This document shows, one piece after another, positions 893-63,420 of a stretch of DNA of 64,000 nt (positions are counted from its first letter, which is position 1; each line of letters opens with the position of its first letter). The notes beneath the pieces were generated by a model, which searched no databases, had not been told where the DNA came from, and was given only the letters and a program-made list of their open reading frames with translations. The DNA lies in contig NC_057721.1 of assembly GCF_004010195.1 (NCBI RefSeq), positions 60,952,156 to 61,016,155 on the forward strand. Reading direction: 5' to 3'. Source of the DNA: Chiloscyllium plagiosum (Eukaryota). A program made the position numbers and the translations under genes.

Positions 893-927
893 TACTAGCT
901 TTCCGAGTGCTGCTCCTTCATCAGGTA
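893..927 (-). ncRNA. Minimal hammerhead ribozyme-like motif (PLE family A)
   Basis: Minus strand: UAC-CUGAUGA-A-GGAG cagca CUCG-GAAA-GC-UA/GUA. Stem I UAC:GUA; base of stem II mismatched. Confidence 0.55.
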
Positions 928-3382
928 GCTGTAGAGCAGGATCATAAGACCTCGAATTTATAACAGTGTCATGCATGCAATTGATAACAATAATCTAGGT
1001 TTGTTTGATATATTGTAAGTCTTTCATCTTTTAGAATGGGTTGCAGGTTCCTTGCAGTAGCATTGTCATTCAGAATAGAACAGACTACTGCAAGGAAGTG
1101 TACCGACCACTGAGCAACCAGGAAAACTATAGACAACTACCGGCCAACCCAACCAAAGAATACACCCGTGAACAAAACAGATTAATCAAGACTTTTGATC
1201 CAGTTCTTCATAGTACCCTGTGCACTCTCATCCCACGTACTTCTCGTGCAGAGGACCCCTACTGCCTTCTGAAGACACACAAAGCTAACACACCTTGTTG
1301 CCCCATTGTGCCAGGCAATGGGACCCTGTGTGAGAACCTCTCTGGCTATGTCGACATCTTGAAACCCATTGTACAGAGGGCCCCCAGCTTCTACCATGAC
1401 AATACAGATTTCTTACAGAAACTCAGCACCACTCAGCACCCACAGACTAGTCGAACCAGGAACATTTCTCACCACAATGGATCTTTCGTCACTCTACACC
1501 AGCCTACCCGATGATAACAGCATCGTGGCAACAGCCTCAGTGCTCAATACCAAGAACTGCCGATCTCTGAGCATCATCCTACAACTCAACGGCTTCACAA
1601 TGTTTTCACCTTTGACAACCAGTTCTTCATCCAAACATACGGAACTGCCATAAGAACCAAATTTGCGCCCCTGCAGGCCAACATTTTCATGCACAAGTTC
1701 GAGCAAGACTTCTTTACTGCACAGGACCTCCAACTAGCGCTGTACACCAGCTATATTGATGACATTTTTTTCCTCTGGACCAATAGTGAGGAATCACTGA
1801 AACAACTACAGAGTGAAATCAACAGGTTTCATCCTACCATCAGACTTACCATGGACTACTCTTCAGTGTATGTTTCATTCTTGGACAGATGCATCTCCAT
1901 CAAGGACGGGCACCTCAGTATCTTTCTCTACTGCAAGCCCACTGATAACAGCATGATGCTACACTTCTCTAGCTTTCACGCTCAATGTATTAAAACAGCC
2001 ATCCCCTATGGACAAGCTCTACACATACACATGATCTGTTCAGATGAGGAGGATCGCAACACACACCTAAAGGTGCTGAAGGATGCTCTCATAAGGACAG
2101 AGTACGTGTTCAATTTATCGATCGCCAGTTCTGACATGCCACAGCAAGAAATCATAATGACCTCCTCAGGGACAAACACGGGATGCGACCGATAGAGTAC
2201 CCTTCGTTGTCTTGTACTTCCTGGGAGCAGAGAAACTACACCATGTTATTCACAGCCTGCAACACATTATTGAGCACCTCACCAAGACCTCACCTACACC
2301 TCTATTTCTCATCTTTAAACACCCATCAAACATTAAACACACCATTATTCGCAGCAATCTGCCCAGCCTTCAGGACAGCATCAACCAAAACACCTTGCAA
2401 CACTGTCAAGGCAGTCACTGCGAGGCATGTCGACACAGATACCACCATTACGTGGGGACACCATCCACCATCTACACAGCAGGTACTCATGTAAGTCAGC
2501 CAAGTAGATGCTACAACAACGGATGAATGGACACTGCGCTGCCATCACCAGAAAGGGGTGTTCCCTCCCAGTCGGGGAACACTTCAGCGGTCAGAGGCAC
2601 TCGGCCTCGGATCTTCGGGTGACTGTTCTCCAAGGTGAACTTCAGGATACACAACAACACAGAGTGACCGAGCAGAGGCTGATAGCCAAGTCTGGCACCC
2701 ATGAGGATGGCCTCAACCAGGACCTTGGGTTCATGTCACACTACAAGTGACCCCATACACTATACACTCTCACACACACACTCATACACATGCACATTCT
2801 TACATACTTATGCAGACCATCCTTCATATACACACACACTCTCTCAGACACACAAACCCATGAGGCACGCACACACGCAAAATCAACAAACTCACACACA
2901 GACACACTCTATCTCTCCTTCACATATGCGCATGCACACACACAAACTCACCCCATAGGCTTGTGTGTATGTGCATTTGCAGAATTGTAATTGCAGATAC
3001 ATTCTATTTTGTTCAAAAGGCACACAGTATGCAGGCAGTCAATCCTTGTAATATTTATTATAATATTTATTAAATAACTACTTTGGAAATAAAACCAGTC
3101 TGACCCAACATTGGGAAACCGACAGACTAATCTCACACCTTTAGTGCATAGTCTGAGCTGAGATGTCACCTTTTTTTTTAATAACACTTCAAGTTATCTC
3201 GAGAATGTGATTTGAAAGAAGTGCTGGAATTTACATATTAATGAACCGAAACCTGCAACCAATTCTAAAAGTTGAAAAGTTTAACAGCAATCTGGGTTTG
3301 TTCAATATATTGTATCAATTGCATGTGTGACACTGTGATCTTGTGCTATAACATCGGTGTCTTAGGACTCTGCTCCACAGCC

Positions 3383-3415
3383 ACCTGACGAAGGAGCAGC
3401 ACTCTGAAAGCTAGT
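3383..3415 (+). ncRNA. Minimal hammerhead ribozyme-like motif (PLE family A)
   Basis: AC-CUGACGA-A-GGAG cagca CUCU-GAAA-GC-UA/GU. Confidence 0.55.
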
Positions 3416-3738
3416 ACTTCCATATAAACCTGTTGGACTATAGCCTGATGTTGTGTGATTTTTAACTCGGAAACATATTACCAATCCTCCCTGTCGCTGG
3501 ATACAAGTACTGAAATTGCATTTAGGGTCTACCTACAGCACATGGTCTGCAGCAACTCCAGAAGGCTGCACACCATCATCTTCTAAGTCACTTCTTGTAT
3601 CTAAATGTAAACCTCAATGGCATTGTGGAACGGCCAATAAATATTGACCAGCCAGCGACGCCCATGCTCGGTCAGTGAAAAAAAAAGACCACGAGGAAAA
3701 CATATTAAGTACTCCACAATGTATTAATTTCACAATGT

Positions 3739-3956
3739 CAAGAGTGTGGTGCAGGTCAGGCAGCATCTGAGGAGCAAGAAGATCGACATTTTGGGCATGA
3801 GCCCTTCATCAGACTTATGCCTGAAACGTCGATTCTCCTGCTCCTCGGAAGCTGCCTGACCTGCTGTGCTTTTCCAGCACCACACTCTTCTGTGCTTTTC
3901 CAGCACCACACTCTTGACTCTGATCTCCAGCATCTGTAGTCCTCACTTTCTCCTCG
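3739..3956. mobile_element. Short PLE terminal-repeat fold-back insertion
   Basis: Minus then plus copies of the CCCGAAACGTCGATT..GATGCTGCCTGACCTGC tail, with an internal tandem duplication of about 27 bp. Flanked by tttcac(a/a)atgt / tttcacactgt (3728-3738, 3957-3967). Confidence 0.7.
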
Positions 3957-5734: not shown

Positions 5735-6201
5735 GGTGATATCCAGGCTCTAACAGAGAGAGTACACCGACCGCCGACCAGACACACCATCCAGCGAGAG
5801 GAGTCTGTCCCAGTTCAGCTGCTGCTGCTGCTGGTGGTCACTGTAACTGAGTCAGGCACCGTGCCTGAAATCCCTGTTAGACTGGAAACTCCCTCTGCTG
5901 GCCAGCTCTCACTTTACAATGTTCAATCAGATACATCACGGAATTAACCCAGAGAAAAGTGACAGCGCGAGAAGGGGCCATCCAGCCCATCATTTTACTC
6001 CTGTTGATTAAACGGGCAGCCCGTTCTAATCACACTTTCCAGCACCTGGTCCGTACGGTCTCATGTTATAGCGCTTAGTGTTTTTTTCAAAGACATTTTG
6101 AATGTACGTCACACCTCTCTGACTAGGTTAAAAAATCACACAAGTTGAAACTTTATTGCTGGAACAGCACAGCAGGTCAGGCAGCATCCAGGGAACAGGA
6201 G

Positions 6202-6237
6202 ATTCGACGTTTCGGGCACAGGCCCTTCTTCAGGAAT
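6202..6237 (-). ncRNA. Minimal type-I hammerhead ribozyme (PLE family B), intact core
   Basis: Minus strand: AUUC-CUGAAGA-A-GGGC cugu GCCC-GAAA-CG-UC/GAAU. Confidence 0.7.
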
Positions 6238-6978
6238 GAGCAGAGAGTGTTCAGCAGGAGAAGATAAAAGGTAGGGAGGAGGGACCTGGAGGAGGGGAGT
6301 TGGAAACGCGATAGGTGGAAAGAGGTCAAGGTGAAGGTGATAGGTCGGAGTAGGATGGAGGCGGAGAGGTCAAGAAGAAGACTGCAGGTCAGGAAGGCGG
6401 CGCCGGGCTGGAAGGATCCGGCTGAGACAAGGTGGGGGGAGGGGGGATGAAGAAACTGGTGAAGTCCAAGTTCATCCCCTGCGGGTGGAGGGTTCCCAGT
6501 CGGAAGATAAGACGCTCCTCCTCCGACCGTCGCGTTGTTGTGGATTGGCGGTGGATGAGTCCAATGACCTACATATCCTCGGTGGAGTGGGAGGGGGAGT
6601 TGAAATGCCCCTCCCCCTTCCCCTCCCACTCCACCGAGGATATGCAGGTCATTGGACTCATCCACCGCCAAACCACAACAACCCGACGGTCGGAGGAGGA
6701 GCGTCTTATCTTCCGACTGGGAACCCTCCAACCACAGGGGAAGAACTTGGACTTCACCAGTTTCTTCATCCCCCCTCCCCCCAACTTGTCTCAGCCGAAT
6801 CCCTCCAGCCCGGCACCGCCTTCCTGACCTGCAGTCTTCTTCTTGACCTCCCCGCCTCCATCCTACTCCGACCTATCACCCTCACCTTGACCTCTTTCCA
6901 CCTATCACATTTCCAACGCCCCTCCTCCAAGTCCCTCCTCCCTACCTTTTATCTTCTCCTGCTGAACACTCTCTGCTC

Positions 6979-7014
6979 ATTCCTGAAGAAGGGCATGTGC
7001 CCGAAACGTCGAAT
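6979..7014 (+). ncRNA. Minimal type-I hammerhead ribozyme (PLE family B), intact core
   Basis: AUUC-CUGAAGA-A-GGGC augu GCCC-GAAA-CG-UC/GAAU. Stem I AUUC:GAAU, stem II GGGC:GCCC, palindromic ACGU in place of stem III. Predicted cleavage after 7010. Confidence 0.7.
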
Positions 7015-7119
7015 CTTCTGTTCCCTAGATGCTGCCTGACCTGCTGTGCAGTTCCAGCAATAAAGTTTCAGCTTTGACCTCCAGCGTCTGCAGACCTCAC
7101 TTTCTCCACAACTTGTTGA

Positions 7120-8125: not shown

Positions 8126-8870
8126 AGTAGCTAAGTGAGCCATTCAATCCATCGACCCAGTGATGCAATTTAACATGAATACGGCTGATTCTCTGCTGCA
8201 ACGCTATACTCCCATTCTCTCTTGACAACCTTTGATGTCTTTTGTTTATAAAATGCCTTTTTTGACTGTGGTTGTGAAAGACACTACATAGACGTAATGT
8301 TTTTTGTTTTAAAATTGATCAAGGATTCTAAACAAAACATGATGCTTTTTATAAATTTACCATGTTGATTTGAGAGAGAAAATGAAAGAAAACAGTATAT
8401 TTTCATTAATACTTTTCTTTTAAAGATGAGCCAATCCACAATACTCTGCATATAATTGAGTGACATATAATTCTGGATTTCTCAAACATATTGACAGCAG
8501 AGCTTGCTATTTAATTGTACTCTCAATCATCATTTCTATAATTTGCAAGTTCAGAAATGTGTTTTAACAGCACTAATCAAAAGCTAAACACTTCATGTGT
8601 TGATCTGGTTCTTGTCTTTAACACTTAGCATGATAAACACATTTCTTACAGCAATGGTTTCTTTTCATTTACAGAACGCTCTGAATGCAACAGATGAGTA
8701 TAACAGTGATCGCTCCATCATAGGTACTCCTACATGACTCACATGATCTTTTCCTATGCGCACAGTAATAAAATTAAAAATAGTTCTCATTATTAGAATT
8801 TAAAAGCTGCAGCCTCCCTGCCTTCACAGATAGATCAAATATTTTATAAAAACTACCATATCTAAATTAC

Positions 8871-10122: not shown

Positions 10123-10197
10123 TGCCCGAAACGTCGAATCTCCTGTTCCCTGGATGCTGCCTGACCTGCTGTGCTGTTCCAGCAATAAAGTTTCAAC
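10123..10197 (+). mobile_element. Short PLE terminal-repeat tail, 5' end within the hammerhead motif
   Basis: TGCCCGAAACGTCGAATCTCCTGTTCCCTGGATGCTGCCTGACC..CCAGCAATAAAGTTTCAAC matches the end of the 6144 arm. Confidence 0.75.
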
Positions 10198-11329
10198 TGA
10201 ATACAATCTGTTCCCTATCAGTTACTAAAGGGACATACTGTTTGATTTGATCAGCCAATTATTGGAACTGATATACACCAGCACTGAAATTGATACACAA
10301 TGTCGCTCAACTGTGTCATAGGCAGAATGAATTTTGGACTGTTAGTAGAAAATGCCATTCATTACACCACTGCATAGAGGAGCCCTGTTTAAACTGTTGC
10401 CCAAATTTTTGAAATACTTTATCTTTCCAGGGTAATGTGAGGAAGAGCAGGCACTTTTCAAACCCAAAGGTGGCAGCCTTTGGCTTTTTTCTGAGTTTGC
10501 ACGATATACAGTGAGCAATAGTGATGATCCATTATCCCTCAGGATAGCTTTGATATGTTCTACTACTGCAGCAAAATTGCAGGATGAGCAAATGGCTATG
10601 TCCTATTTGCAAGATTGCTGATGAAACCAATCTTATAGCATGTGGAACTATACACACCCTCATGTGTACAGTGACTGATGAAGTTTGGCTTATGGTAGGC
10701 AACAGTGTGGAACCCATGGGCAGATTTCCTAACTAGCACATGTAGGAAATAAAAGTGGAATCTTTAATCTAATTGGCTTCCTTCAGATTCAGGTGATGCC
10801 AGCAACCTGTGTCCAGTTTTAATGACTGTACGCATGCCCAAATAAATGCTGTAGTCATAGGATTGCTCCTAAATCCACCACTCACAGACATTTTGGGTCA
10901 ATCTCCATGAACAATATGTTCTTAATGGAGTAAGTCCTCACCTCCTACCTCCCGTATATTTCCAGTACGTTGTTGACATATGTACAATCTTTAAACATGC
11001 ATTCACATATAAAAAATTTCTTATATATTTTAATATACTTTATACTGTGTTCACATTCACTTTAAGATGAAACAGATTCATTTAAATAATTGTTTTTAAA
11101 CTCACCAGTTACAGAATTGGATGTGAAGTTATGCATTGGGATTATTAGTCTAGAGATACAGCCAGTATATAAAAGACAAGACTCAAAACATTAACTCTTT
11201 TTCTCTCTCCATATCTTGCTATTTGACCTGCTAACGTGGTCCAGTATTTTCTGTTTTTATTTCAGAATTTCAGTCTCTGCAGTATTTTGTTTTTATACCA
11301 CCATGATACTGTTCCTTTACAGTCAATAA

Positions 11330-21709: not shown

Positions 21710-22457
21710 CCTCACAGCACCTTCCCATTCACCTCCCTCCTCTGTATCCAAGGTCCTAAGTACACTTTTCAGTTGAAGCAGCACTTTATCCGCATTTCAC
21801 TCCATCTAGCCTACTGTATTCACAATGTGGTCTCTTCAAATTGGGGAAACGAAGCACAGCCTGGGTGACCGCTTTGCAGAATATCTACATTCTGCCTCAA
21901 AAGAGATGGTGAGCTTCCAGTTCCCTGCCACTTCAACACATCACCCTGTTCTCTGTTTCAGACTTGCTGCAGTGCTCCAGAGAAGTTTAACGCAAGCTGA
22001 AAGATCAGCACCAGACTTTCTGCTTGAAGACCTTGCAGCCTTCTGGACTTAACATCGAGTTCAACAATTTTGGGGCCTGAGGTCATGTCCTTATCCTCAC
22101 ACCCACACACCAGACCTTGTCATCACATGGAGTGCTACCACACACACAGTTACTAATAGTGTCCATTAGCAATTATTCATTCCTCCCCAGGCTGACTTTG
22201 AACCACCCATTTGTCTGTCCAATTGTTTTTTCCTCTCTTTGGAATGTATCTCCACCTATCATTTACTCTTCCACCCAACCCCCTTGCCTTCCATCCCACC
22301 CCACCCCCACACCCTATCTTCTATGTAAATGTCAAGCTTTTCCTAGCTACCATCAGTTCTGAAGAAGGGTCCCCGGATCCCAAAACATTAACAGATTTGT
22401 CTCCACTAATACTGCCAGACCTGCTGAGATTTTCCAGCAGTTTCTGTTTCTGCTTTC
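21710..22457 (+). mobile_element. PLE 3' fragment (GIY-YIG + terminal repeat, family D)
   Basis: IGETKHSLGDRFAEYL; degenerate hammerhead agttCTGAAGAagggtc..ccc(a)aaacattaac at about 22356-22392. Confidence 0.7.
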
Positions 22458-22499
22458 ATAGAGTCGTAGAGTCATAGAGATGGACAGCACGAAAACAGC

Positions 22500-23762
22500 A
22501 TCTGCATTTCTTTCATTTTTTCCACAGCTGCAATATATTGTTCGAGCACTTGGAGATGAGGCCATCTGGTGTGTGTTCTGTAGTGGAACTGGTCGTCCTG
22601 GGAACAGATGCGGCAGAGGCAAAGGAATTGGGAATGTAGGATAGCATTTTTGCAGGAAGTAGGGTGGGAGGAAGTGTAATCCAGGTTCCATCACAGAACA
22701 CACCAGATGGCCTCCATCTTAAAAGACCGAAATTTCCCCTCCCACGTGGTTGAAGATCCCTCCAATGAATCTCATCCACGTCTCGCACCTCCACCCTCGA
22801 ACCCCACCCCTCCAACCGGAACAAGGACAGAACCCCCCTGTTCCTTGCCTTCCATCCTTCCAAACTCTGCATAAATCACATCATCCGCCAATATTTCCGT
22901 CATCTAAAAATGGACCCCACCACCAGGGATATATTTCCCTCCCCACCCCTATCCGCTTTCCACAAAGACCATTCCCTCTGTGACTACCTGGTCAGGTCCA
23001 TGCCCCCAAACAAGCCACCCTCCTCTCCCAGCACCTTGCTCTGCCACTACAGGAATTGCAAAACCTGCGCACACACCTCCCCCCTCACTTCCACCAAGGC
23101 CCCAAAGGAGCCTTCCACATCCATCAAAGTTTCAACTGCATTTCAACACATGTCATCTACTGTATCCGTTGCACCTGATGTGGTCTCCTTTACAATGGAG
23201 AGACTGGGATGCCTTCTCGCAGAGCCTTTTAGGGAACATCTCTGGGACACCCACACCAATCAACCCCACCACCCTGTGGCCGAACATTTCAACTTCCCCT
23301 CTGACTCTGCCGAGGACATGCGGGTCCTGGCCTCCTCCATCTCACCACTCCCTCACTACCCGATGCCTGGAGGAAGAAAACCTCATCTTCTGCCTCAGGA
23401 CCCTTCAACCCCAGGACACATCAATGTGGACTTCACCAGTTTCCTCATTTCCCCCCCCCCCCCACTTTTCCCCAGTTCCAACCTTCCAGCTCAGCACCAT
23501 CCTCATGACCTGTTCCACCTGTGATTCTTCCTTCCCACCTATCTGCTCCACCCTCCTCTCTGACCTATCATCTTTACCCACCATCTCCATCCACCTAATG
23601 CACTCTCAGCTACCTTCTCCCCAGCCCCACCCCAGTCCCATTTATCTCTCCACTCCCGAGGCTCCCAGCCTCATTCCTGATGAAGGGTTCCGGCCCGAAA
23701 CGTCAATTCTCCTGCTCTCAGATGCTGCCTGACCTGCTGTGTTTTTCCAGCAACACACTCTT
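22500..23762 (+). mobile_element. PLE fragment with 5' inverted piece (22500-22690)
   Basis: DPTTRDIFPSPPLSAFHKDHSL, FREHL..HPVAEHFN, EEENLIFCLRTLQPQ; hammerhead ATTC-CTGATGA-A-GGG ttccgg CCC-GAAACGTC at 23673-23708. Confidence 0.8.
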
Positions 23763-23883
23763 GGTCAATATTCAGGTTCCACCTCCTCTAGGGGCGGGTA
23801 ATAACATCTCTGAACAGATTGAATAGAAAAAAAATTAAATAAATAAAACTATTCAAAGAAATTGAAAAACTAGCAAATATTTA

Positions 23884-33565: not shown

Positions 33566-33619
33566 AGAATTGCACACAACATTCCATTCTGGATGAGGAC
33601 TGTTGCACTGAGGTATTGG

Positions 33620-33794
33620 AAAAAGTGAGGACTGCAGATGCTGGAGATCAGAGCTGAAAATGTGTTGCTGGAAAAGTGCAGCAGGTCAGGCAGCATCCAA
33701 GGAGTAGGAGAATCGATGTTTCGGGCTTGAGCCCTTCTTCAGGGAGGGCTCCTGATTCCTGAAGAAGGGCTCATGCCCAAAACGTCGATTCTCC
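33620..33794. mobile_element. 175-bp non-autonomous PLE-derived insertion with two opposed hammerhead-like cores
   Basis: Perfect 16-bp TSD TGCACTGAGGTATTGG (33604-33619, 33795-33810); cores at 33711-33745 (-) and 33755-33790 (+). Confidence 0.85.
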
Positions 33795-34084
33795 TGCACT
33801 GAGGTATTGGGCAACCAGTCAAAGATGGGGATATTTCTAAAGTGTCTTCCTCTTCAATGGAGCTTTTTAATTGTCCACCACTATTCATGACTAGATGCAG
33901 ACTACAGAACGTAGTTATGATTTTTTGGATGTGGAATTGCTGAGCCCTGTTTAACACTCACAGTTTAAGCTGCTTGGAAAATAAGTGGACTTGTATTGTG
34001 GTTTAACAAGGTATTTTTAATTTATTCACAGGATGAGGGCATCGTTGGTTAGGCCAGCATTTATTACCCACCCATAATTGCCAG

Positions 34085-39684: not shown

Positions 39685-40310
39685 ACCAAAAGAACTATGG
39701 ATGCTGTGAATAGGAAACAAAAACAGATTGCTGGAGATGCTCAGAAGGTCTAGCAGCATCTGTGGACAGAAATCAGAATTAATGTTTCAAATTGAGTGAC
39801 CCTTCCTCAGAACTGATGGTAGCTAGGAGAATTTCAGTTTATATACAGAAAAACAGATTGCTGGAGATGCTCAGAAGGTCTAGCAGCATCTGTGGGCAGA
39901 AATATGAATTAGTGTTTCAGATTGAGTGACCCTTCCTCAGAACTGATGGTAGCTAGGAGAATTTCAGTTGATATACAGAAGATGGGGTGGGGGGAGAGGG
40001 TAAGGAGTAAATGATAGGTGTGGATAGAGCCCAAAATGAAAAGAACAGTTGGACAGACAAAGGCATGGATAATGATCTGGCTAGGAGGATGAATAGCTAT
40101 TAATGGGGACTGTCTGCAAAAAAAAACAGAGCTTCCAGTTAACTTCTACTTTATCACACCACCATGTTCCCTCTGCAGCGTCTCTGTCTGAGGCTTGCTA
40201 CAGCGCTCCAACGAAGCTCAGCACAAGCTGGAAGAACAGCACCTCATTTTCCACTAGAGGGCACTGCAGCCTTGTGCACTCAGTATCAAGTTCAATAACT
40301 TTAGGGCTTG
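39685..40310. mobile_element. PLE terminal-repeat fragments (family D) with a tandem duplication of about 130 bp
   Basis: 39719-39848 is repeated at 39849-39978; both carry a degenerate hammerhead on the minus strand. Confidence 0.7.
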
Positions 40311-40379
40311 AGCTCTCCTATGTCCTGACTCTCATAACTACCTTCACTACTGCTCTTCCCACCCCACATACTGCAAGGA

Positions 40380-41670
40380 TTCTATCCTCTCCCAGTTCAT
40401 CTGCCGACTTCATATCTGTTCAGATAATGCATCTTCCAAAACAGTGCTGCTGACATATCTTCCTTCTGCCATTAGTGGTTTCCTGCCCACTGCAGTTGAC
40501 AGACTCTCAACCACATTCAATCTATCACTTGTGCTTCCGCCCTTGCCCCTTCCCACTATGCAACATTGTGATTGGGTCCTCCTCCTTCTCACTTTTCATC
40601 CCACCAGCCTCTGCATTGACAGGATCATTCTCTGCCATTTCAGACAACTCCAGCAGAATGCTACCACCAAACACATCTTCCTCGCACTCCTCCTGCCTAC
40701 ATTTCGGAGGGATTATTCCTTCTGGGGCATCCTAGTGCATTACTCGACCCCCGTTTCCCACGGCAACTTCTCATGTAACTGCAGAAGGTGCAGCACCTGC
40801 CCCTTCACCACCTCCCTGCTCACCATCCAAGGGCCTAAACAGTCTTTTTAGGTGGAGCAGCCTTTCACTTGTGTCTCCTCTGATCTTGTGTATATTATCT
40901 GCTGTACCCCAATGTGGCCTAGTCGCCACTGGAGAAACAAAACACAGACAGGCTGACTGCTTTGCAGAACAGATTAGAGTGGTGCTGGAAAAGCACAGCA
41001 GGTCAGGCAGCATCCGAGGAACAGGAAAATTGACTTTTCGGGCAAAAGCCCTTCATCGGGACTGCTTTGAAGAACACCTCAGTTCTGTGTGCAAGCATGA
41101 CCCAACTTTCCCATATCTGCTCATTTTAAGTGTCCTGCTCACATGCCCACTTGTCTGTCCTTGACATGCTGTGATGTTCCAGTGAATCATAGCACAAATT
41201 GGAGGAGCAACATCTCATCTTCGAACTAGGCAGTTTACAGCTTTCTAGGCTCAATATTGAATTCAACATCTTCAAATTGTGAACCCATTCTCTCCCTTTC
41301 ATTTAGATTTGCTTGTTACTTTGTCTGTCACCATGTCCTCTCTTTCCTGCCACCCCTGCATTGGGACTATCTGTTCTTTCCAGTGTGGCAGTTAGACACA
41401 CCGTTATTCTGCCATTCTCACCTTCTGATCACCTAATCTAAACTATCAACATCCTTTTCCCTTCAACATTCCAAACCACGCTGCCCGCCCCCCCCCCCCC
41501 CCGCCAATGCATAAATGCTGTCCCCTCCACATCTCACTTCAGCTCTGATGAAGAGAAATCTAGTTTTGAAATGTTAGCTTGCTTTCTCTCCATGGATACC
41601 CTTGACCCTCTGATCTCCAGCATTTTTTGTTTTCAGTACAGATTTCAGCATCTGCAGTAATTTGCTCCTA
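40380..41670 (+). mobile_element. Decayed PLE fragment
   Basis: LTFHPTSL..ILCHFRQLQQNATTKHIF..CNCRRCSTCPFT, GETK; terminal CTGATGAAG..GAAATGTTAGCT at about 41540-41580. Confidence 0.75.
40972..41059 (-). mobile_element. 88-bp PLE terminal-repeat tail insertion
   Basis: 17-bp TSD GACTGCTTTG(C/A)AGAACA (40955-40971, 41060-41076). Confidence 0.8.
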
Positions 41671-41782: not shown

Positions 41783-41863
41783 TATCAATGATATGGAGCT
41801 GGAAAAGCAGAGCAGGTCAGACAGCATCCGAGGAGCAGTAAAGTCAATATTTCGGGCCAAAAC
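41783..41863 (-). mobile_element. 81-bp PLE terminal-repeat tail insertion
   Basis: 14-bp TSD CCTTTGTCTGTCCA (41769-41782, 41864-41877). Confidence 0.8.
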
Positions 41864-41956
41864 CCTTTGTCTGTCCAACTGTTCTTCTCTCTCTTTGGGG
41901 TCTATCCCCACCTATTGTTTACCATACCCTCCCCACCTTGGTCCTATTTTTTTTAT

Positions 41957-42277
41957 AGATTAGTTTAGATTAGTTACAGTGTGGAAACAGGCCCTTTGGC
42001 CCAACAAGTCCACACCGACCCGCCGAAGCGCAACCCACCCAGACCCATTCACCTACATTTACTCCTTCACCTAACACTACGGGCAATTTAGCATGGCCAA
42101 TTCACCTAACCTGCACATTTTTTGGACTGGGAGGAAAGCGGAGCACCCAAAGGAAACCCACGCAGACATGGGGAGAATGTGCAAACTCCACACAGTCAGT
42201 CACCTTAGGTGGGAATTGAACCCGGGTCTCTAGCGCTGTGAGGCAGCAGTGCTACCACTGTGCCACCGTGCTGCCCA
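41957..42277 (-). mobile_element. HE1-type V-SINE
   Basis: (agatt)n tail then reverse V-SINE body ending ccaccgtgctgccc. Confidence 0.9.
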
Positions 42278-43730
42278 TAAACTGACTCTTTCCTAGCTAC
42301 AATCCGTTTTGAGGAAGGGTCACTTGACCCAAAATATTAACTCTTATTTCTCTCTACAGATGCTGCCAGATCTGAGCTTTACCAGCAATTTCTGTTTTTT
42401 GTTTTGTGGGAATCTAGGTTGTATTAGTGCAGAAATGCTGAGCTGGGCTGTTACAACTCGCAGCCAAAGCTGCTCCACCTGCCACTTGCTGGCACTGTTC
42501 ACCTTTACAACCTTTATTCAGAAAGACTGAAGCAGTGAACAGGAATTTTTTTTAAAAGCATGGATTAGAAAGCTCCCAGCTCACTGTTTTTGTCCCATCA
42601 GCACTTTCGTAACCTCTTACTTCAGGTATTAAATTGAGATTTTGTGCATGAATGCAAGGACAGTGGAGGGAATAGGTACAAGGACAGCCAGGGAGTGGTA
42701 GATTTGGTGAAACATTATTTGGGGAGGGAGAGCAGCTGTAAGTCAGAGAAAGGAAGGATCTCCAGTGACTAGATGATTTGAGGAGCAGGAAGCACTAAAT
42801 ATTCTGTATTTGTACATTTATTTCAAGTTATTTCACTTACCATTGTAGGAATTTTATAATGTTGATTAGTTTACTTTGCTAGTTGTAGTGTTTTGTTTCT
42901 TTAACGAGGAAAGTTTTCAACCTAATTGCAGCTTTTGTATTGATTTTAATGGAAAATGGTTTAAGTCATTTTATTTGAAGTCCTGATTTTCAGGTACAGT
43001 CGCAATCTTTGGTGAGGGCTTGATGTGCTGCTGATCTTCCAGTTTGTTGTCATTGCAAAACAACTGCACTATTTATTTTACTATCCACATAGTTAATCTT
43101 CTGTTATTTATTAATATACTTTTTACGCAATTGAATAGATAAAGACTTGATAAAAGCACAAACAAAAATGGGCCTCATAAAGTCTTTGATAATTTGACTG
43201 AGTCTTACAGTGTAGCAGGGGCAGGGAAAAGTCATGTACAGTACACCGAGTGATGGTTACATAGGATAATGACCATTGTATTGTTGGGTTGACCAACTGA
43301 AAAAGCCAATAAAGCATATAACTTTGCGAGTGGGACATCATTCAAGTAAGCACTGTTGAAATTACTTTGAACCTTTTATTATAGCTGTTGGTTAAGCCAT
43401 AGTAGAATGGATTTCTGCATTTGTATGTCAGATCTAATGAAGCTTAATATTTGTTTTGGATGTTTAAGTTATTACTTTGCGTGATTTTTGTCTGGACCAT
43501 AGAGTAACCTGTCAGGGATTAGAAGACTATGTCCTGGAATATGTTATTAAGGTGAGGTACGACAAGGTTATAAATGACATTTTATCCTCTTTTGAAGATA
43601 GATCCACTTATTCTGATCTTGAGTACTTTAAGTAGTTGAACACACAAAGAACGTGGTCTTGTGTGTGGGTGACTAATCATTGTGCCTGAATTTTGAACTC
43701 CTAAGCTGATAACCTGTTGCTCTTCTATAG

Positions 43731-48304: not shown

Positions 48305-49714
48305 GCAAGTTTGTGTATCACAAACAAGATCTTAATGAACCACTTTCCCATGTAAAATCTATCTAGTTTTACAAAAAACATAAAATACAGAGCTCTTGTG
48401 ACACAGGTAATGACCCTAACCTCTGATTCAAGAGACCTGGGTTCAAATTCCACCTGTCCCCATAATCGTGTAATAAAAATCTCTGAATAGACTGATTAGG
48501 AAATATCTGGATAACATGAGTTCTTCAAAACTAGAATACGTTGCCTGGAAGTGTAGTGGAGCCAAGTTACATTTGGCCACTCAACACTAGATGATTATTT
48601 GAAGAGAAATGTTGTGTAGCTATACAGGGAAAAGGCAGGAGATTAGTATTAATCAAAATGTTCATTAGTGGTTATTCTGATAAATGTATATACCTACAGC
48701 CTGCTATTAGAAAGAAAACCTTTGCCATCTGTATGAATCCCAAAATCAAGTTAGATAAACCATACATTTGCAAGTAGGGTTTCTGGTTGTATGATGTGGA
48801 ATCTGCATGCACACTCTCTTGGGGACAGTACCTAACTAAACCCAGAGAGCCTAAGTGCAGGAACTTTGCTTTCATTCCCTAGTCTTTTTACATTGTGTTA
48901 AACAAATAATATTGAGAGTAGCATGTTTCCCCTACAAGCTGGTTCTGTCATCCCGTTTCTCCCCTCAGTCAAAGCAAAACACTCGAAGACACAGTATAGT
49001 TTTACCTCCTTCGTCTTTATTCTGGCCCACGTGCACAGAGACATGATTTCTCGGTCTTCTCTTGAACAGCAGTTTATTAGTGAATTATATAGTTACTTTA
49101 CAGGGAGGAGCACCCAGATAAGGCAACATACATATTAATTGGGTGACCGTTTCAATCAGCAAGTTCAATAGTAGAGATAAAGCCATCTGCGTTATACAAT
49201 GAATAACTGGCTTAACATAATGAATACTTTTCACCTCATTAACTGACTTTACATACTGAGTGCTTCCCCATCTTGTTAAATGGCTCTACATAATGAATGC
49301 TTTTCCACCTTGTCAACAAATCACCCTTGCCTCCAGTCCCCCATTGTTAACTGCAAGTTATATGATCTGAGTCATGCTCAGCTGAACATTTTGTTAGCAA
49401 GTTTTGAGAAGATATGTAGCTCAGGTTGAGGTTCTGGATGTAGGTTGCTCGCTGAGCTGGTTGGTGGGCATTTGATGCCAAGGGATCTGAGTAGTAGCCC
49501 ACAAACCCACTAACACACTAAAAACTGTAGCTACTGAACTTGAAAGACCCTGTACAGTCAACAAGCAAAACTAATATCATTTACAAAATACCGTGCAAGG
49601 ACTGTAATAAACACTATATTGGACAAACGAGCAGAAAACTAGCCACCAGGATACATGAACATCAACTAGTCACAAAACGACATGACCCTCTCTCACTAGT
49701 ATCCTTACATACAG

Positions 49715-50680
49715 ATTCATAGCTCCTTGAAAGTGGAGTCGCAGGTAGATAGGATAATGAAGAAGGCGTTTGGTATGCTTTCTTTTATTGGTGAGAGTAT
49801 TGAGTACAGGAGTTGGGAGGTCATGGTGCGGCTGTACAGGACATTGGTTAGGCCACGTTGGAATATTGCATACAATTCTGGTCTCCTTCCTATCGGAAAG
49901 ATGTTGTGAAACTTGAAAGGGTTTACAAGAAAAGATTTACAAGGATGTTGCCAGGGTTGGAGGATTTGAGCTATAGGGAGAGGCTGAACAGGCTAGGGCT
50001 GTTTTCCCTGGAGCGTTGGAGGCTGAAGAGTGACCTTATAGAGGTTTACAAAATTGAGGGACATGGATAGGGTAAATAGGCAAAGTCTTTTCCCTGGGGT
50101 CGGAGAGTCCAGAACTAGAGGGCATAGGTTTAGGGTGAGAGGGGAAAGATATAAAAGAGACCTAAGGGGCAACTTTTTCACACAGANNNNNNNNNNNNNN
50201 NNNNNNNNNNNNNNNNNNNNNNNNNNNNNNNNNNNNNNNNNNNNNNNNNNNNNNNNNNNNNNNNNNNNNNNNNNNNNNNNNNNNNNNNNNNNNNNNNNNN
50301 NNNNNNNNNNNNNNNNNNNNNNNNNNNNNNNNNNNNNNNNGAAGAGTGACCTTATAGAGGTTTACAAAATTGAGGGACATGGATAGGGTAAATAGGCAAA
50401 GTCTTTTCCCTGGGGTCGGAGAGTCCAGAACTAGAGGGCATAGGTTTAGGGTGAGAGGGGAAAGATATAAAAGAGACCTTAGGGGCAACTTTTTCACACA
50501 GAGAGTGGTACGGGTATAGAATGAGCTGCCAGAGGATGTGGTGGAGGCTGGTACAATTGCAACATTTAAGAGGCAATTGGAATGGTATATGAATAGGAAG
50601 GGTTTGGAGGGATATAGGCCAGGTGATGACAGGTGGGACTAGATTGGGTTGGGATATCTGGTTGGCATGGACGGGTTGGA
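49715..50680 (+). mobile_element. CR1 LINE 3' fragment nested in a PLE
   Basis: [30 protein letters not shown]; gap inside. Confidence 0.9.
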
Positions 50681-50854
50681 CAAACATGAGAATTCCTAGA
50701 AGCATGGCATTCCAACTGCAACTCTTAACAAACACATTGAATTGGACACAATTTACTACCCCTGAGAAAAAACTGGAAATGACATCACCAACCCAAAGAA
50801 TCCCAAACATATAAATAGAAAGCAGGAATCATCAGCAATACTTCATCTGGAGGC

Positions 50855-50894
50855 TCACTGAAGATGTTACCTAGTATGGTGATGAAACGTCTGA
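50855..50894 (+). ncRNA. Minimal hammerhead ribozyme-like motif (PLE family C)
   Basis: UCA-CUGAAGA-U-GUUACC uaguau GGUGAU-GAAA-CG-UC/UGA. Confidence 0.6.
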
Positions 50895-52310
50895 AATTGA
50901 ACCTTCCAGCTCAGTGAGCAAACCTACATCCTGAACCTTTTGTTTCACAAAACGTAGCTCTTTCCCTAGCTGCTCATACCCTATACACATTCTCATTCCT
51001 TCCATTATCATTTCATGATAACCACCTAGATGGCACTACCAGCTTTCATAAGACTCTGACAGCCAATATTTAAGCAAATTATTGACACAGAGCATACAAT
51101 TATTATAACAACAAAATTATTAGTCCATTACAATAAATAGAATTTGAAGAATCATCCCATGTGGAAAGAATTCACCAGTAAAGTTCTTAAATCCACACTC
51201 CATCCCCTCCAAGTTGAGTGGAAATGAGTCAGTTCTCTAAATTCTCCTTCAGTAAAGTCCAACCTGAAAACAAAATTCCGTCTGACCTTGCACAGCACTC
51301 CACGGAGAAATCTGAATTCTTGGGTAAGGGCAGTTAAATACTTAAAGCTGACTAGACTTCCATCGTTCAGAAGATGCTTCAGATGGAGGATACCAGCGCA
51401 TCTGAGTGTGCAGTGCAGCAGCTGCAGCTGCAGGCTAGGTGAATGCAGCATTCTTTGTTGTTTCTGCTCCTGCTTGCTGTTAAATGTAACAAAGCCAACT
51501 GGCTATTATGATGTGAGCTTGATCAATGAACCTTCATATCCCTTAAATGATCGAAAGGCAACAAAACTCACTTGGTTTAATGTCCGTAGGAAGGCCACTG
51601 ACAAAAAATGTTGTTGTTAGCTCCTTCACTTTTCAAGCAATTGTTGTACAATTTCAATGTAAAAACAAAATCTGCCCCATTACATAACTCACAAAACACA
51701 TTGAATTGAGATCCTATTCAAACAAGGTAAAACAGTTACTTAAAAGGATTTTCTGAACCAGCATTTTAACAAACCAAAATTTTTAAACATCAAAGACTTG
51801 TCAGCATGGCACGATTTACATTGAAACTTTCCTTTTCCAACCCAAATATTAATACAACCTTTATTTCAGCATTTCTCTTTTTTTGCATCTTCTCAGTGAA
51901 ATTACATTTATAACCCTCGCAGCGGATCACATGGCACCACAGTCCAAACTCCTCACCTCCCCCACTCCCCCCAGGCCTATTCAGCCTCGATCCCTGAGAG
52001 CATCCTTGTAAATCCTTTCAAGTTTCACAACATCCTCCTTTATAGCAGGGAGATCAGAATTGTATGCAGTTTTCCAAAAGTGGTCTAACCAATGTTTCTT
52101 ATCACAGTCTGGTTAATGTCATGTTTGAAAGCTGTTATGAATTTTCTCCTTTCTACTGACCTACCTAATAGCATGTTGTTCATCTCTGGTTCTTAACCCT
52201 GGATTTAAGCTAGAATGTTGCAACTGTGTCAAAGATAACTCCATATCCATGAAGAACATTCTGTTTTGTTTATCAAATTGTACACTGTCATCTTTGCTTC
52301 ATTTTATTAG

Positions 52311-57088: not shown

Positions 57089-58989
57089 TGTGGTTCTGTT
57101 CGCCGAGCTGGAAATTTTTGTTGCAAACGTTTTGTCCCCTGTCTAGGTGACATCCTCAGTGCTTGGAAGCCTCCTGTGAAGCGCTTCTGTGGTGTTTCCT
57201 CCGGCATTTATAGTGGCCTGTCCCTGCCGCTTCCGGTTGTCAGTTTCAGCTGTCCGCTGTAGTGGCCGGTATATTGGGTCCAGGTCGATGTGTTTGTTGA
57301 TGGAGATTGTGGATGGCACTCTATAAATGCCGGAGGAAACACCACAGAAGCGCTCCACAGGAGGCTCCCAAGCACTGAGGATGCCACCGAGACAGGGGAC
57401 GAAACGTTTGCAACAAAAACATCCNNNNNNNNNNNNNNNNNNNNNNNNNNNNNNNNNNNNNNNNNNNNNNNNNNNNNNNNNNNNNNNNNNNNNNNNNNNN
57501 NNNNNNNNNNNNNNNNNNNNNNNNNNNNNNNNNNNNNNNNNNNNNNNNNNNNNNNNNNNNNNNNNNNNNNNNNNNNNNNNNNNNNNNNNNNNNNNNNNNN
57601 NNNNNNNNNNNNNNNNNNNNNNNNNNNNNNNNNNNNNNNNNNNNNNNNNNNNNNNNNNNNNNNNNNNNNNNNNNNNNNNNNNNNNNNNNNNNNNNNNNNN
57701 NNNNNNNNNNNNNNNNNNNNNNNNNNNNNNNNNNNNNNNNNNNNNNNNNNNNNNNNNNNNNNNNNNNNNNNNNNNNNNNNNNNNNNNNNNNNNNNNNNNN
57801 NNNNNNNNNNNNNNNNNNNNNNNNNNNNNNNNNNNNNNNNNNNNNNNNNNNNNNNNNNNNNNNNNNNNNNNNNNNNNNNNNNNNNNNNNNNNNNNNNNNN
57901 NNNNNNNNNNNNNNNNNNNNNNNNNNNNNNNNNNNNNNNNNNNNNNNNNNNNNNNNNNNNNNNNNNNNNNNNNNNNNNNNNNNNNNNNNNNNNNNNNNNN
58001 NNNNNNNNNNNNNNNNNNNNNNNNNNNNNNNNNNNNNNNNNNNNNNNNNNNNNNNNNNNNNNNNNNNNNNNNNNNNNNNNNNNNNNNNNNNNNNNNNNNN
58101 NNNNNNNNNNNNNNNNNNNNNNNNNNNNNNNNNNNNNNTTGTTGAAGTTGCGCGGGTATCCGTTTTTGGTGAATACCTTGTATAGGTGTTCCTCTTCTTT
58201 TTGCAGTTCTGGTGTGCTGCAGTGTGTTGTGGCCCTTTTGAATAGTGTCCTGATGCAGCTTCGTTTGTGTGTGTTGGGGTGGTTACTTTCATAGTTTAGG
58301 ACTTGGTCTGTGTGTGTGGCTTTCCTGTATACCTTTGTGGTGGATTCTCCGTTCGGTGTTCTCTGTACCATCACGTCTAGGAATGGGAGTTGGTTGTCCT
58401 TTTCTTCTTCTCTCGTGAATCGGATTCCTCTGAGTGTGGCGTTGATGATCCGGTGTGTTTTCTCTATTTCTGTGTTTTTAATGATTACAAAGGTGTCACC
58501 AAACTCTGGGTCAGAATCATTAAAAACACAGAAATAGAGAAAACACACCGGATCATCAACGCCACACTGGCATGATGGTACAGAGAACACCGAACGGAGA
58601 ATTCACCACAAAGGTATACAGGAAAGCCACACACACAGACCAAGTCCTGAACTATGAAAGCAACCACCTCAACACACACAAACGAAGTTGTATCAGATAC
58701 TATTCAAAAGGGCCACAACACACTGCAGCATACCAGAACTGTAAAAAGAGGAAGACCTGGACCCAATATACCGGCCACTACAGCGGACAGCTGAAACTGA
58801 CAACCGGAAGCAACAGGGACAGGCCACTATAAATGCCAGAGGAAACATCACAGAAGCGCTTCACAGGAGGCTCCCAAGCACTGAGGATGTCACCTAGACA
58901 GGGGACGAAACGTTTGCAACAAAAATTTCCAGCTCGGCGAACAGAATCACAGCAACGAGCACCCGAGCTACAAATCTTCTCCCAAACTT
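57089..58989. mobile_element. Multi-inverted PLE (family C) insertion into Gypsy
   Basis: 13-bp TSD TGGTTAATAGACT (57076-57088, 58990-59002); RT thumb LPFLDVMV..TKVYRKATHTDQVLNYESNHP; alternating orientations. Confidence 0.88.
58878..58917 (+). ncRNA. Hammerhead-like motif (PLE family C, U at cleavage position)
   Basis: GCA-CUGAGGA-U-GUCaCCU agac AGGgGAC-GAAA-CG-UU/UGC; further copies at 57372-57411 (+) and 57123-57162 (-, GAAA mutated). Confidence 0.55.
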
Positions 58990-61861: not shown

Positions 61862-63420
61862 TCAAAGAGTCGGTGTCATACAGCATGGAAACAGACCCTT
61901 CAGTCCAACTCATCCATGCCGACCAAAGTTCCCAGAACTAAAGTCCCACTTGACTGCATTTGGCCTCTAAACCTCTATTTACGTATCTATCCGAATATCT
62001 TTTAGCTGTTATCACTGTACCTGCATCTACCATTTCCTCTGGCAATTTATTCCACAAATGAACCGCCCTTTGTGAGAAAAGGTTGCCCATCAGATCCCTT
62101 TAAAATCTTCCCCTCTGTCATCTTAAAAATATGCCCCCAGTTTTGAACTCCCCCACCCTAGGAAAAGTCCTTAGATATGCCCCTCATGATTTTATAAACC
62201 TCTTATAAGGTCACCCCTCAACCTCCTATGCTGTAGTGAAAGAGGTCCCAACCTCACCTTGTCATTGAAACTCTCCAGTCTCGGTAACATCCTGGTAAAT
62301 CTCTTCTGCACCCTCTCAAATTAAATAATATCCTTCCTACAGCAGGGTGACCAGAACTGGACACAGTACTCCAAGAGTGGCCGCACCAATGACCTGTACA
62401 ATCTCAACATGATGTTCCAACTCCTATACTCAATCATCTGAGTAAAGACGCCAAGCATGATAAATGTCTCCTTGACTACCCTGTCTACCTGAATGCAACT
62501 ACCATAGAACTATGTACCTGAACCCCTAGTCTCGCAGTTCAACAACACTACCCAAGGCCGTGTCATTGCCTATCATTAACTGTATAAGTCCGACCCTTGT
62601 GTGTTTTACCAAAATGCAATACCTCACATTTATCCAAATTAAACTCCATCTACCACTCCTCAGCCCATTGGACCAGTTGATTAAGATTCCTTTGTAATTT
62701 TAAATAACCTTCTTCTCTAAGGAGAAAGTGAGGACTGCAGATGCTGGAGATCAGAGCTGAAAGAATCCGACGTTTTGGGCATGTCCTTGGCGGAGTGGGA
62801 GAGGGAGTTAACCAACCCAACCACCCTGTGGCTGAACACTTTAACTCCTCCTCCCACTCCACCAAGGGCATGCAGGTCCTTGGCCTCCTCCATCGCCATA
62901 CCATGGCAACACAACGCCTGGAGGAAGAGCGCCTTATCTTCCGCCTAGGAACCCTCCAACCACAAGGGATGAATGCAGATTTCTGCAGCTTCCTCATTTT
63001 CCATCCCCCCACCATATCTCAGTCCCAACCCTCGGACTCAGCACCGCCTTCTTGACCTGCAATCTTCTTCCTGACCTCTCCTCCCCCACCCTCTCTCCGG
63101 CCTATCACCCTCACCTTAACCTCCTTCCACCTACCGCATTCCCAACGCCCCTCCCCAAGCCCCTCCTCCCTACCTTTTATCTTAGTCTGCTTGGCATACC
63201 TTCCTCATTCCTGAAGAAGGGCTTATGCCCGAAACGTCGATTCTCCTGCTCCTTGGATGCTGCCTGACCTGCTGCGCTTTTCCAGCAACACATTTTTCAG
63301 CTCTAACCTTCTTCTCTGTCAACTATACCACTAATTTTAGTGTCATCCACAAACTTATTAACTCTAAATTCTCATTCAAATCATTTCTATAAATGACAAA
63401 CAACAGTGGACTCAGCACCA
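61862..63420 (-). mobile_element. CR1 LINE 3' fragment interrupted by a PLE
   Basis: gtcatacagcatggaaacagaccc tail; EEGYLKLQRNLNQLVQWAEEW; gtgtcatccacaaactt. Confidence 0.85.
62719..63303 (+). mobile_element. PLE (family B) 3' fragment with short 5' inversion
   Basis: 14-bp TSD TAACCTTCTTCTCT (62705-62718, 63304-63317); HPVAEHFNSSSHS..EEERLIFRLGTLQPQG; hammerhead at 63207-63242. Confidence 0.88.

What the first reader, a model, noticed from the sequence alone, without database searches (positions are those of the whole stretch)
893..63242. At least four PLE terminal-repeat families carry covarying minimal hammerhead ribozyme folds
Seen: the same architecture recurs with different helix sequences: stem I, CUGA(U/C/A/G)GA, one extra nt, stem II, GAAA, palindromic centre, UH, stem I'. 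Family A (893, 3383): GGAG/CUCY, AGCU, UA. Family B (6202, 6979, 23673, 63207): AUUC/GAAU, GGGC/GCCC, ACGU, UC. Family C (50855, 57372, 58878): UCA/UGA or GCA/UGC, longer stem II, extra U. Family D (22356, about 35955, about 39770): AGUU/AACU, GGGUC/GACCC, mostly decayed. Helices change together while the core stays fixed. Known: Penelope-like elements carry minimal type-I hammerheads that cleave as dimers via a palindromic stem III. Inference: these shark families are ribozyme-processed, and more than 15 motif copies in 64 kb would imply a very large genomic population.
Basis: partly seen in the sequence, partly recalled or inferred. Interest (0 to 1): 0.7.

Follow-up and report, generated by a model that had tools for sequence, protein, structure and literature searches.

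The report
Shark Penelope retroelement minimal hammerheads
These are real copies of a tiny RNA motif of the self-cutting hammerhead type, already known from Penelope-like jumping genes, here in huge numbers as short end-pieces in a likely shark genome; they are predicted to cut only weakly and in pairs, and the DNA copies examined show no sign of having been made from cut RNA.

Summary
The window carries 23 copies of minimal type I hammerhead motifs from five sequence groups (A, B, C, D, plus an unlisted E); 9 keep an exact core and palindromic centre. Each group sits downstream of Penelope-like (PLE) RT and/or GIY-YIG remnants: A, B, D, E Neptune-like, C Penelope/Poseidon-like. Stem I covaries (31 of 33 Watson-Crick pairs over 11 subfamily consensuses; permuted mean 11.2). 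Five exact core patterns give 210,349 genome-wide matches against 494 in controls. This is the known PLE min-HHR (Cervera and De la Pena 2014). Corrections: B and D share a tail; the commonest B subfamilies have a U-U mismatch in stem I; the 'extra U' of C is the U of the ORF start codon. 'Ribozyme-processed' is not supported by the DNA: Neptune-like copies break off at the motif's front edge. A 3.7-fold excess at the cut site in B comes from fold-backs joined through stem I microhomology; plain truncations show no excess. Cleavage was not tested. The scan found the same motif population and front-edge pile-up before, in this genome and others.

The parts
842..965 (-). Family A inverted 5'-truncated end copy with hammerhead motif (C3 at 924; exact core; G-G mismatch closing stem II)
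   Evidence: (I24)
1035..2726 (+). Family A decayed PLE ORF: RT, cysteine linker, endonuclease remnant (Neptune-like)
   Evidence: (RVT_1 E 6e-4, below cut-off)
3344..3467 (+). Family A 3' terminal repeat with hammerhead motif (C3 at 3385; exact core; C-A mismatch in stem I)
3722..3915 (.). Family B back-to-back stub pair (3755-3812 minus, 3812-3860 plus), decayed
6142..7074 (.). Family B1 young inverted pair, arms 458 nt and 95% complementary, each with the endonuclease C-terminus and a fully paired hammerhead motif (C3 6233 minus; C3 6983 plus, predicted cut 7010/7011)
   Evidence: (I1)
10123..10198 (+). Family B1 stub beginning inside stem II
21719..22460 (+). Family D element end: endonuclease remnant 21719-22071, then decayed motif 22354-22416 (G12 lost)
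22571..23770 (+). Family B3-type element end: RT thumb, cysteine linker, GIY-YIG remnant, motif with C3 at 23677 (exact core, stem I closing pair lost); short inverted piece 22571-22684
33617..33801 (.). Family B2 back-to-back stub pair joined at the motif's front edge (33686-33743 minus, 33754-33801 plus)
35885..35991 (-). Family D stub (C3 35987; G12 lost)
39719..39980 (-). Family D direct tandem, period 130 nt, two motifs (C3 39810 and 39940), centres decayed
40327..41645 (+).
41798..41867 (-). Family B stub beginning inside the motif
42277..42404 (+). Family D decayed copy
49395..50958 (+). Family C element end: inverted tail 49395-49460, GIY-YIG remnant 49564-49719, an intervening repeat, motif with C3 at 50858 (exact core, 6-bp stem II)
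57089..58951 (.). Family C complex inverted insertion: motifs at C3 57159 (minus, G12 lost), 57375 (plus), 58881 (plus); RT thumb remnants on both strands; N gap 57425-58138
   Evidence: (I6, I18)
62756..63309 (+). Family B2 element end: endonuclease C-terminus, motif with C3 at 63211 (exact core, U-U in stem I)

Best explanation
The motifs are minimal type I hammerhead sequences in the terminal repeats of several Penelope-like retrotransposon lineages, left by the hundred thousand as short end copies that are likely dead; in the parent elements they are predicted to cleave weakly, as dimers or with protein help, while the inserted DNA was likely copied from uncut RNA. Shown: position about 30-125 nt inside the element's 3' end, downstream of RT and GIY-YIG; direct terminal repeats each with a motif in two full-length loci; compensatory changes in stems I and II between subfamilies; decay of inserted B copies at the same rate in core and tail; 5' ends of Neptune-like copies piling up at the motif's front edge; no excess of plain truncations at the cut in B1/B2. 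Inferred: selection on the catalytic core acts in the mobile parent elements; the palindromic centre forms stem III between two motifs; reverse transcription starts in the tail and runs off the RNA 5' end at or just before stem I, giving stubs and back-to-back pairs; cleavage, if it occurs, trims or inactivates the transcript and does not define the copied template.
For: Link to PLE ORFs found without using the motif: 17 of 20 B, 12 of 15 C, 7 of 15 A loci; RVT_1 above cut-off and GIY-YIG just below in the 893-aa frame of L206. Direct terminal motifs 3.49 kb apart in L209 and 2.38 kb apart in L252. Stem I: 31 of 33 Watson-Crick pairs over 11 consensuses, permuted mean 11.2, 0 of 20,000 permutations reach it; one consensus per lineage 15 of 15, 1 of 120 permutations. 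Family C alignment, 25 distinct rows: 91.1% paired, covariation score 0.304, 0 of 500 shuffles; slid controls 28-45% paired. Counts 130,619 + 48,431 + 26,506 + 3,936 + 857 vs controls 112 + 11 + 127 + 103 + 141. Mismatch rate in 76 B copies: non-CpG core 0-4.6%, tail 2.7-4.7%, CpG centre 15.8%. Front-edge pile-up: B 74 of 168 at -5..+7, A 16 of 41 at -12..+7, D 15 of 40 at -8..0; C 0 of 25 at -30..0. Cut-site test. Same architecture and low dimer-only activity in PMC4209133; uncut RNA as template and protein-assisted cleavage in PMC11167929.
Against: No cleavage assay was possible. The two most abundant B groups have only 2 bp + U-U + 1 bp in stem I, and the minimum-energy fold of none of five window copies tested as monomers was the full hammerhead fold, so activity may be very low. 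In one search two of five measures were not above shuffles (pairs with double change 305 of 500; further pair types 480 of 500), and related sequences inflate the others. Subfamilies were split partly by the 3' strand of stem I and the core was fixed by my patterns. Family C stem II is also coding sequence. That the RNA starts at the front edge is not shown: a test for an extra G there was confounded and inconclusive. The raw count at the cut site is 3.7 times its neighbours (363 vs 97 and 97), and part of the fold-back class could come from cut RNA.
Confidence: 0.78

Rival explanations
1. Ribozyme processing makes the transposition template: tandem terminal motifs cleave as a dimer, release unit-length or circular RNA, and this is reverse transcribed (first reader; model proposed in PMC4209133).
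For: Core and helices are conserved across Neptune-like and Poseidon-like lineages; full-length elements carry two direct motifs (L209, L252); 363 junction matches at the B cut site vs 97 and 97 two bases either side; earlier scan notes on other genomes report such an excess.
Against: 19 of 30 cut-site loci are an inverted arm ending at the motif's front edge joined through stem I microhomology; plain flank junctions are 4 of 30, 15 of 30 and 12 of 30, that is about 48, 48 and 39 genome-wide. In 8 of those 19, all with B2-type arms by my reading of the listing, the junction carries the arm's version of stem I, so the direct part begins 3-4 bases past the cut. All copies extend 50-95 nt past the cut at their 3' end. 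In the unbiased sample 6 of 168 B copies start at +27..+30 against 74 at the front edge. Hammerhead mutants of anole PAc insert normally in vitro and no RNA-seq reads ended at its cut.
Confidence: 0.15
2. The motif is kept for a non-catalytic job (internal promoter, start-codon context, binding site or folding aid for the element's protein) and cleavage is vestigial.
For: In family C the A9, extra U and G10.1 form the in-frame ATG of the ORF, as described for PAc. The sequence around the first base of stem I in B and D resembles an initiator (consensus recalled, not tested). Drosophila Penelope has an internal promoter with a downstream element containing ACGT (PMC2377424 passages). Stem I is weak in B2 and B3/4. 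8 of 9 Xenopus dimer elements did not cleave in vitro (bioRxiv 10.64898/2026.07.22.740005).
Against: Family A has a different palindromic centre, which fits pairing and not a fixed promoter word; compensatory helix changes and a full catalytic core downstream of ORFs of both clades; PAc cleaves in a core-dependent way when protein is added.
Confidence: 0.12
3. Chance matches or an assembly artefact of inverted repeats.
For: The 57089-58951 insertion spans an N gap and may be misassembled.
Against: 210,349 vs 494 control matches; 0 palindromic descriptor hits in 60 shuffles; RNA reads of one run carry the B and C motifs.
Confidence: 0.01

Closest known systems
[quoted passage not shown]
   Same: Type I, no loop 3, palindromic 15.2-16.2, extra base between A9 and 10.1, G10.1-C11.1, several covarying families per genome, mostly single truncated copies, close pairs on opposite strands, found in fish Poseidon and Neptune PLEs.
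   Different: Sharks are not named in the parts read or the two supplements searched. Copy number here is far higher: about 4,000 (coelacanth) and 9,000 (Xenopus) there vs 210,349 exact-core matches here, by different search rules. Front-edge truncation is not described in the parts read.
PAc, Poseidon element of Anolis carolinensis; Frangieh et al. 2024, PMC11167929 (parts 1-2 of 4 read: whole main text, start of methods)
   Same: Family C has the same layout: ORF starts at the start of stem II, cut site shortly downstream of the start codon, no cysteine linker seen before GIY-YIG, tail beyond the motif.
   Different: PAc activity was measured (protein-assisted, dispensable for insertion in vitro); nothing was measured here. 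Families A, B, D, E are Neptune-like; the B ORF does not start in the motif (L209).
Complex insertions of endonuclease-bearing PLEs; Craig et al. 2021, PMC8557442 (passages and section 6 read)
   Same: 5' truncation, partial tandems, adjacent inverted copy, 30-40 bp tail; CX2-5CXXC linker in Neptune and Nematis, absent from Penelope/Poseidon.
   Different: Here many insertions are reduced to 90-130 nt stubs that end at the motif.
Non-LTR retrozymes; Cervera and De la Pena 2020, PMC7229834 (passages) and Li et al. bioRxiv 10.64898/2026.07.22.740005 (parts 1-3 of 5 read; supplements closed)
   Same: Type I hammerheads in animal repeats tied to PLEs; the preprint reports retrozymes in its one chondrichthyan species; axolotl holds 126,247 type I motifs.
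   Different: Retrozymes are head-to-tail tandems, and the 2020 ones are canonical motifs with loop-loop contacts. Here 12 of 188 sampled copies have a same-strand neighbour within 1 kb, 87 an opposite-strand one, 95 none; only 39719-39980 is a direct tandem in the window.

Membership tests
PLE minimal hammerhead (min-HHR) | Core CUGANGA ... GAAA ... UH with type I topology | tested here: met
   9 of 23 window copies exact; same core (up to 2 mismatches) downstream of protein-found ORFs
PLE minimal hammerhead (min-HHR) | No helix III or loop 3; palindromic 15.1-16.1 stretch | tested here: met
   ACGU in B, C, D, E and AGCU in A; commonest centres in the unbiased sample, where the centre was not fixed
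PLE minimal hammerhead (min-HHR) | One unpaired base between A9 and 10.1, and G10.1-C11.1 pair | tested here: met
   All 11 consensuses; G-U at 10.1-11.1 in some, consistent with CpG decay
PLE minimal hammerhead (min-HHR) | Covarying stems I and II between families | tested here: met
   31 of 33 pairs; family C 0 of 500 shuffles on three measures, not on two
PLE minimal hammerhead (min-HHR) | Located in PLE terminal repeats | tested here: met
   for D and E only from window remnants
PLE minimal hammerhead (min-HHR) | Site-specific self-cleavage as a dimer | not testable with these tools
   Needs a bench assay; available RNA reads are poly(A) single-cell libraries
Endonuclease-bearing PLE | RT followed by C-terminal GIY-YIG in one ORF | tested here: met
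   L206: RVT_1 33 bits (cut-off 29.6), GIY-YIG 21.2 bits (cut-off 22.6); L246 GIY-YIG weak, E 0.048; motif order
Neptune or Nematis clade (A, B, D, E) | CX2-5CXXC linker between RT and endonuclease | tested here: met
   Present in A, B and the element upstream of E; not seen directly for D, which is placed by its shared tail with B
Neptune clade versus Nematis clade | RT phylogeny with named references | not tested
   No reference set fetched; hence 'Neptune-like'
Penelope/Poseidon clade (C) | No cysteine linker; ORF starts at stem II as in PAc | tested here: met
   L246 331-aa frame from RT to endonuclease has no linker; in-frame ATG in L252; no tree built
Non-LTR retrozyme | Head-to-tail tandem units each with a motif | tested here: not met
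   12 of 188 with a same-strand neighbour within 1 kb
Rfam hammerhead families | Match to a curated covariance model | tested here: not met
   No hammerhead family among 19 matches at E up to 1

The most novel reading that the evidence does not exclude
This genome holds one of the largest and densest hammerhead populations on record (210,349 exact cores, 59 per Mb; roughly a million recognisable copies by extrapolation), because in Neptune-like elements the transcript begins at the first base of stem I and reverse transcription from the nearby tail runs off that end. The hammerhead then shapes the copies by its pairing and not by its cut: the mirror image of stem I lets the new DNA snap back and prime itself, and this fold-back can mimic a 'cleavage footprint' in genome surveys.
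Probability: 0.4. Interest if true: 0.55.

Novelty: new member of a known kind. Interest (0 to 1): 0.32.

Why it matters
The role of PLE hammerheads is an open question (stated in PMC7761336 passages, and PMC8557442). The motif class is published, so finding it in a shark is incremental. Two things are useful. First, more than 200,000 exact-core copies in young and old subfamilies give a single-base record of where reverse transcription starts and stops relative to the ribozyme; that record points to uncut RNA, in line with the one in vitro system. Second, the apparent excess at the cut site is shown, for B1/B2 in this genome, to be a stem I fold-back class, which warns against reading such peaks as cleavage in vivo. 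B1 (12,517 fully paired copies; an 893-aa open frame at L206) is a ready substrate for a Neptune-type assay.

Tried and rejected
Rfam scan: no hammerhead model matched; the microRNA-precursor matches at 6548-6668 and 58424-58573 are below gathering scores and lie on the centres of PLE inverted repeats. Lunse, Weinberg and Breaker (RNA Biol 14:1499) is not held; I saw only its title in reference lists, so its species list and counts may bear on novelty. Supplements of the 2026 preprint are closed, so its chondrichthyan species and counts were not seen; one supplementary file of PMC4209133 was not searchable. Literature searches for sharks plus PLE hammerheads listed no paper devoted to them; Repbase and Dfam could not be searched. 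Sequencing runs: no RNA holder listed among indexed runs. Reads of run X20 cover both B1 and C motifs on both strands with no place where many molecules begin or end; X21 laid nothing; these poly(A) single-cell libraries cannot be expected to show cut ends, so this is not used as evidence on cleavage. Extra-G test at the B front edge: 29 of 68 stubs have G before stem I (background 0.24), but about 10 are the fold-back class drawn in by my own cut-site search; without them the excess is weak, so inconclusive. First D boundary count (114 copies) was contaminated by B cross-hits and replaced by 40 D-assigned copies. The cluster rule meant to split subfamily A2 failed, so A2 is merged into A1 (it is separate); groups Cx, Dx, Ex were left out of the permutation. 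Energy folding of short monomers and dimers did not return the hammerhead as minimum and is not informative for such motifs. Core-only matches at 1866, 54281 and others had no second copy in the window (for those two) and were not counted.
Full report
Observation. All twelve cited positions hold the motif. An exact-core descriptor with paired stems I and II finds 6 sites in the window, 4 with a palindromic centre, against a mean of 0.05 and none palindromic in 60 dinucleotide shuffles. Profiles built from real genomic copies find 23 copies in the window (2 A, 11 B, 4 C, 5 D, 1 of an unlisted group E at 41545), 20 covering the whole core; 9 keep the exact core and palindrome. Several helix descriptions are inexact for individual copies: both A copies have a broken pair, AUUC/GAAU is true only of subfamily B1, and the D copies are decayed. 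B and D share their downstream tail. Rfam has no matching hammerhead model at E up to 1.

What carries the motifs. They lie near the 3' ends of Penelope-like retrotransposons. In the window, RT and/or GIY-YIG remnants precede the A (3385), B (6983, 23677, 63211), C (50858), D (22360) and E (41545) motifs on the same strand. Loci found by protein search, without the motif, carry the family's motif downstream on the same strand in 17 of 20 (B), 12 of 15 (C) and 7 of 15 (A) cases (loci reach only 1.5 kb beyond the match). L206 has an 893-aa open frame with RVT_1 above and GIY-YIG just below the Pfam cut-off. A, B and the element before E have the CX2-5CXXC linker that marks Neptune and Nematis in PMC8557442; C lacks it and is Penelope/Poseidon-like. 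No tree was built. L209 (B) and L252 (C) are full-length with direct terminal motifs 3.49 and 2.38 kb apart. In L252 the A9, the extra U and G10.1 form the in-frame ATG of the long ORF, so the 'extra U' of family C is part of the start codon, the layout reported for anole PAc (PMC11167929). The closest named proteins are from Chiloscyllium and Stegostoma, consistent with a shark; the species was not determined.

Covariation. Over 11 subfamily consensuses the first three pairs of stem I are Watson-Crick in 31 of 33 cases (permuted mean 11.2; 0 of 20,000 permutations reach 31); taking one consensus per lineage, 15 of 15, reached by 1 of 120 permutations. Pair types switch at all three positions. 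The two exceptions are a U-U in B2 and B3/4, the most numerous groups in my loci. Within family C (33 copies, 25 distinct) 91.1% of cells pair and the covariation score exceeds all 500 shuffles, with G-C, C-G and U-A at one stem I pair and C-G, U-G, U-A at one stem II pair; two of five measures were not above shuffles, and relatedness inflates the rest. Inserted copies are not visibly under selection: in 76 B copies non-CpG core positions differ at 0-4.6%, the tail at 2.7-4.7%, the CpG centre at 15.8%. Selection on the fold is therefore inferred for the mobile parents only.

Population. Exact core-plus-centre patterns in the 3.556-Gb genome give 130,619 (B), 48,431 (A), 26,506 (C), 3,936 (D) and 857 (E spacing), in all 210,349, against 494 for the reversed patterns; a few sites may be counted under two spacings. 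In 80 stretches of 10 kb from contigs C1-C20 (766,945 non-N bases), 42 of 59 exact-core copies also keep both stems under a lenient rule, which suggests about 150,000 foldable copies; 12,517 match a fully paired B1-type pattern. Profiles find 248 copies in that sample, 323 per Mb, or about a million if the sample is typical. Published figures, by other search rules, are about 4,000 in coelacanth and 9,000 in Xenopus (PMC4209133) and 126,247 type I motifs in axolotl (PMC7229834).

Is the element ribozyme-processed? Three results speak against cut RNA as the copied template. First, with copies anchored on the tail, 5' ends pile up at the motif's front edge: B 74 of 168 at -5..+7 relative to C3 (6 at +27..+30, where the cut lies; the 168 include a few D cross-hits), A 16 of 41 at -12..+7, D 15 of 40 at -8..0, but C 0 of 25 at -30..0. 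Second, earlier scan notes on other genomes reported an excess at the cut, so I tested it with three matched junction patterns for B1/B2: 363 at the cut, 97 and 97 two bases either side. Of the first 30 loci of each, 19 cut-site loci are an inverted arm ending at the motif's front edge and joined through the complementarity of stem I; plain flank junctions are 4, 15 and 12 of 30, about 48, 48 and 39 genome-wide. In 8 of the 19, read by eye, a B2-type arm supplies its own version of stem I, so the direct part starts past the cut. The excess is thus explained by fold-back; a contribution of cut RNA to that class is not excluded, and only B1/B2 in this genome was tested. Third, only 12 of 188 whole-core copies have a same-strand family neighbour within 1 kb, 87 have an opposite-strand one and 95 none, so most copies lack a partner in cis, and read-through of pairs such as 6142-7074 would form a long hairpin (inference). 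This agrees with PAc, where core mutants abolished protein-assisted cleavage but not insertion. RNA reads of one poly(A) single-cell run show the B1 and C motifs transcribed, C with about a sevenfold strand bias, but cannot test cleavage.

Mechanism. Most likely the parent elements keep a weak, dimer- or protein-dependent hammerhead near the start of their RNA (inferred from covariation and from PMC4209133 and PMC11167929). Reverse transcription begins in the tail, 50-95 nt past the cut (two 3' end classes, near +77..+92 and near +125), and in Neptune-like families likely runs off the RNA 5' end at stem I, leaving stubs and back-to-back pairs. That the RNA starts there is not shown; the extra-G test was inconclusive. 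Cleavage, if it happens, would trim or inactivate transcripts. Rivals are processing into the template (0.15) and a non-catalytic role such as promoter or start-codon context (0.12; Drosophila Penelope has an internal promoter).

Comparison and verdict. Every sequence-level defining feature of the PLE min-HHR is met; cleavage could not be tested. It is not a tandem retrozyme. Six literature searches listed no paper on shark PLE hammerheads, but a 2026 preprint reports retrozymes in one chondrichthyan genome, and Lunse et al. could not be read. The scan has already noted this population and the front-edge pile-up in this and other genomes; those are unchecked AI notes and not independent support. 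Verdict: real, new member of a known kind, notable for scale and for what the copy ends say about the ribozyme; interest 0.32.

Noticed in passing
window 8850-9548 (+): Open frame of 232 codons with a fibronectin type III domain and a hydrophobic stretch; best Atlas clusters are FNDC9 (score 0.99). That FNDC9 is nested in an intron of CYFIP2 is recalled, not tested; the motifs may thus lie in introns.
   Followed up: partly
window 38314-38500 (+): Short frame with a Yippee/Mis18 match (E 2e-5, below cut-off), perhaps a first exon or a processed copy of a Mis18 gene, next to an N gap.
   Followed up: no
L252:52 and window 50858, 58881: Family C start codon overlaps the hammerhead (A9, extra U, G10.1); the frame runs open into a long N-terminal domain in L252.
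   Followed up: yes
L271-L300: Fold-back class in which an inverted arm ending at the motif's front edge is joined to the tail through stem I complementarity (19 of 30 loci); looks like self-priming of the new DNA.
   Followed up: partly
L209:317-345, L220, L155 (B tail end, about +125): The long B tail ends in a pyrimidine run followed shortly by AG in the few copies that continue into the element's 5' part, which resembles a splice acceptor; no donor was identified.
   Followed up: no
window 39719-39980 (-): Two D motifs in direct tandem, period 130 nt, 95% alike: the only retrozyme-like arrangement in the window; both centres are decayed.
   Followed up: partly
window 40970-41065 inside 40327-41645; L209:608: PLE stubs inserted inside other PLEs (B within E; A within B), which could order the families in time.
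   Followed up: no
window 31216-32735, 34120-35547 and other copies: Abundant LINE remnants with RT (RVT_1 E 6e-21 at 34120-34794); CR1/L2 type by recall; one splits the family C element at about 49707-50720.
   Followed up: no
window 19301-19514: Tandem repeat, period 46-48 nt, 4.5 copies.
   Followed up: no
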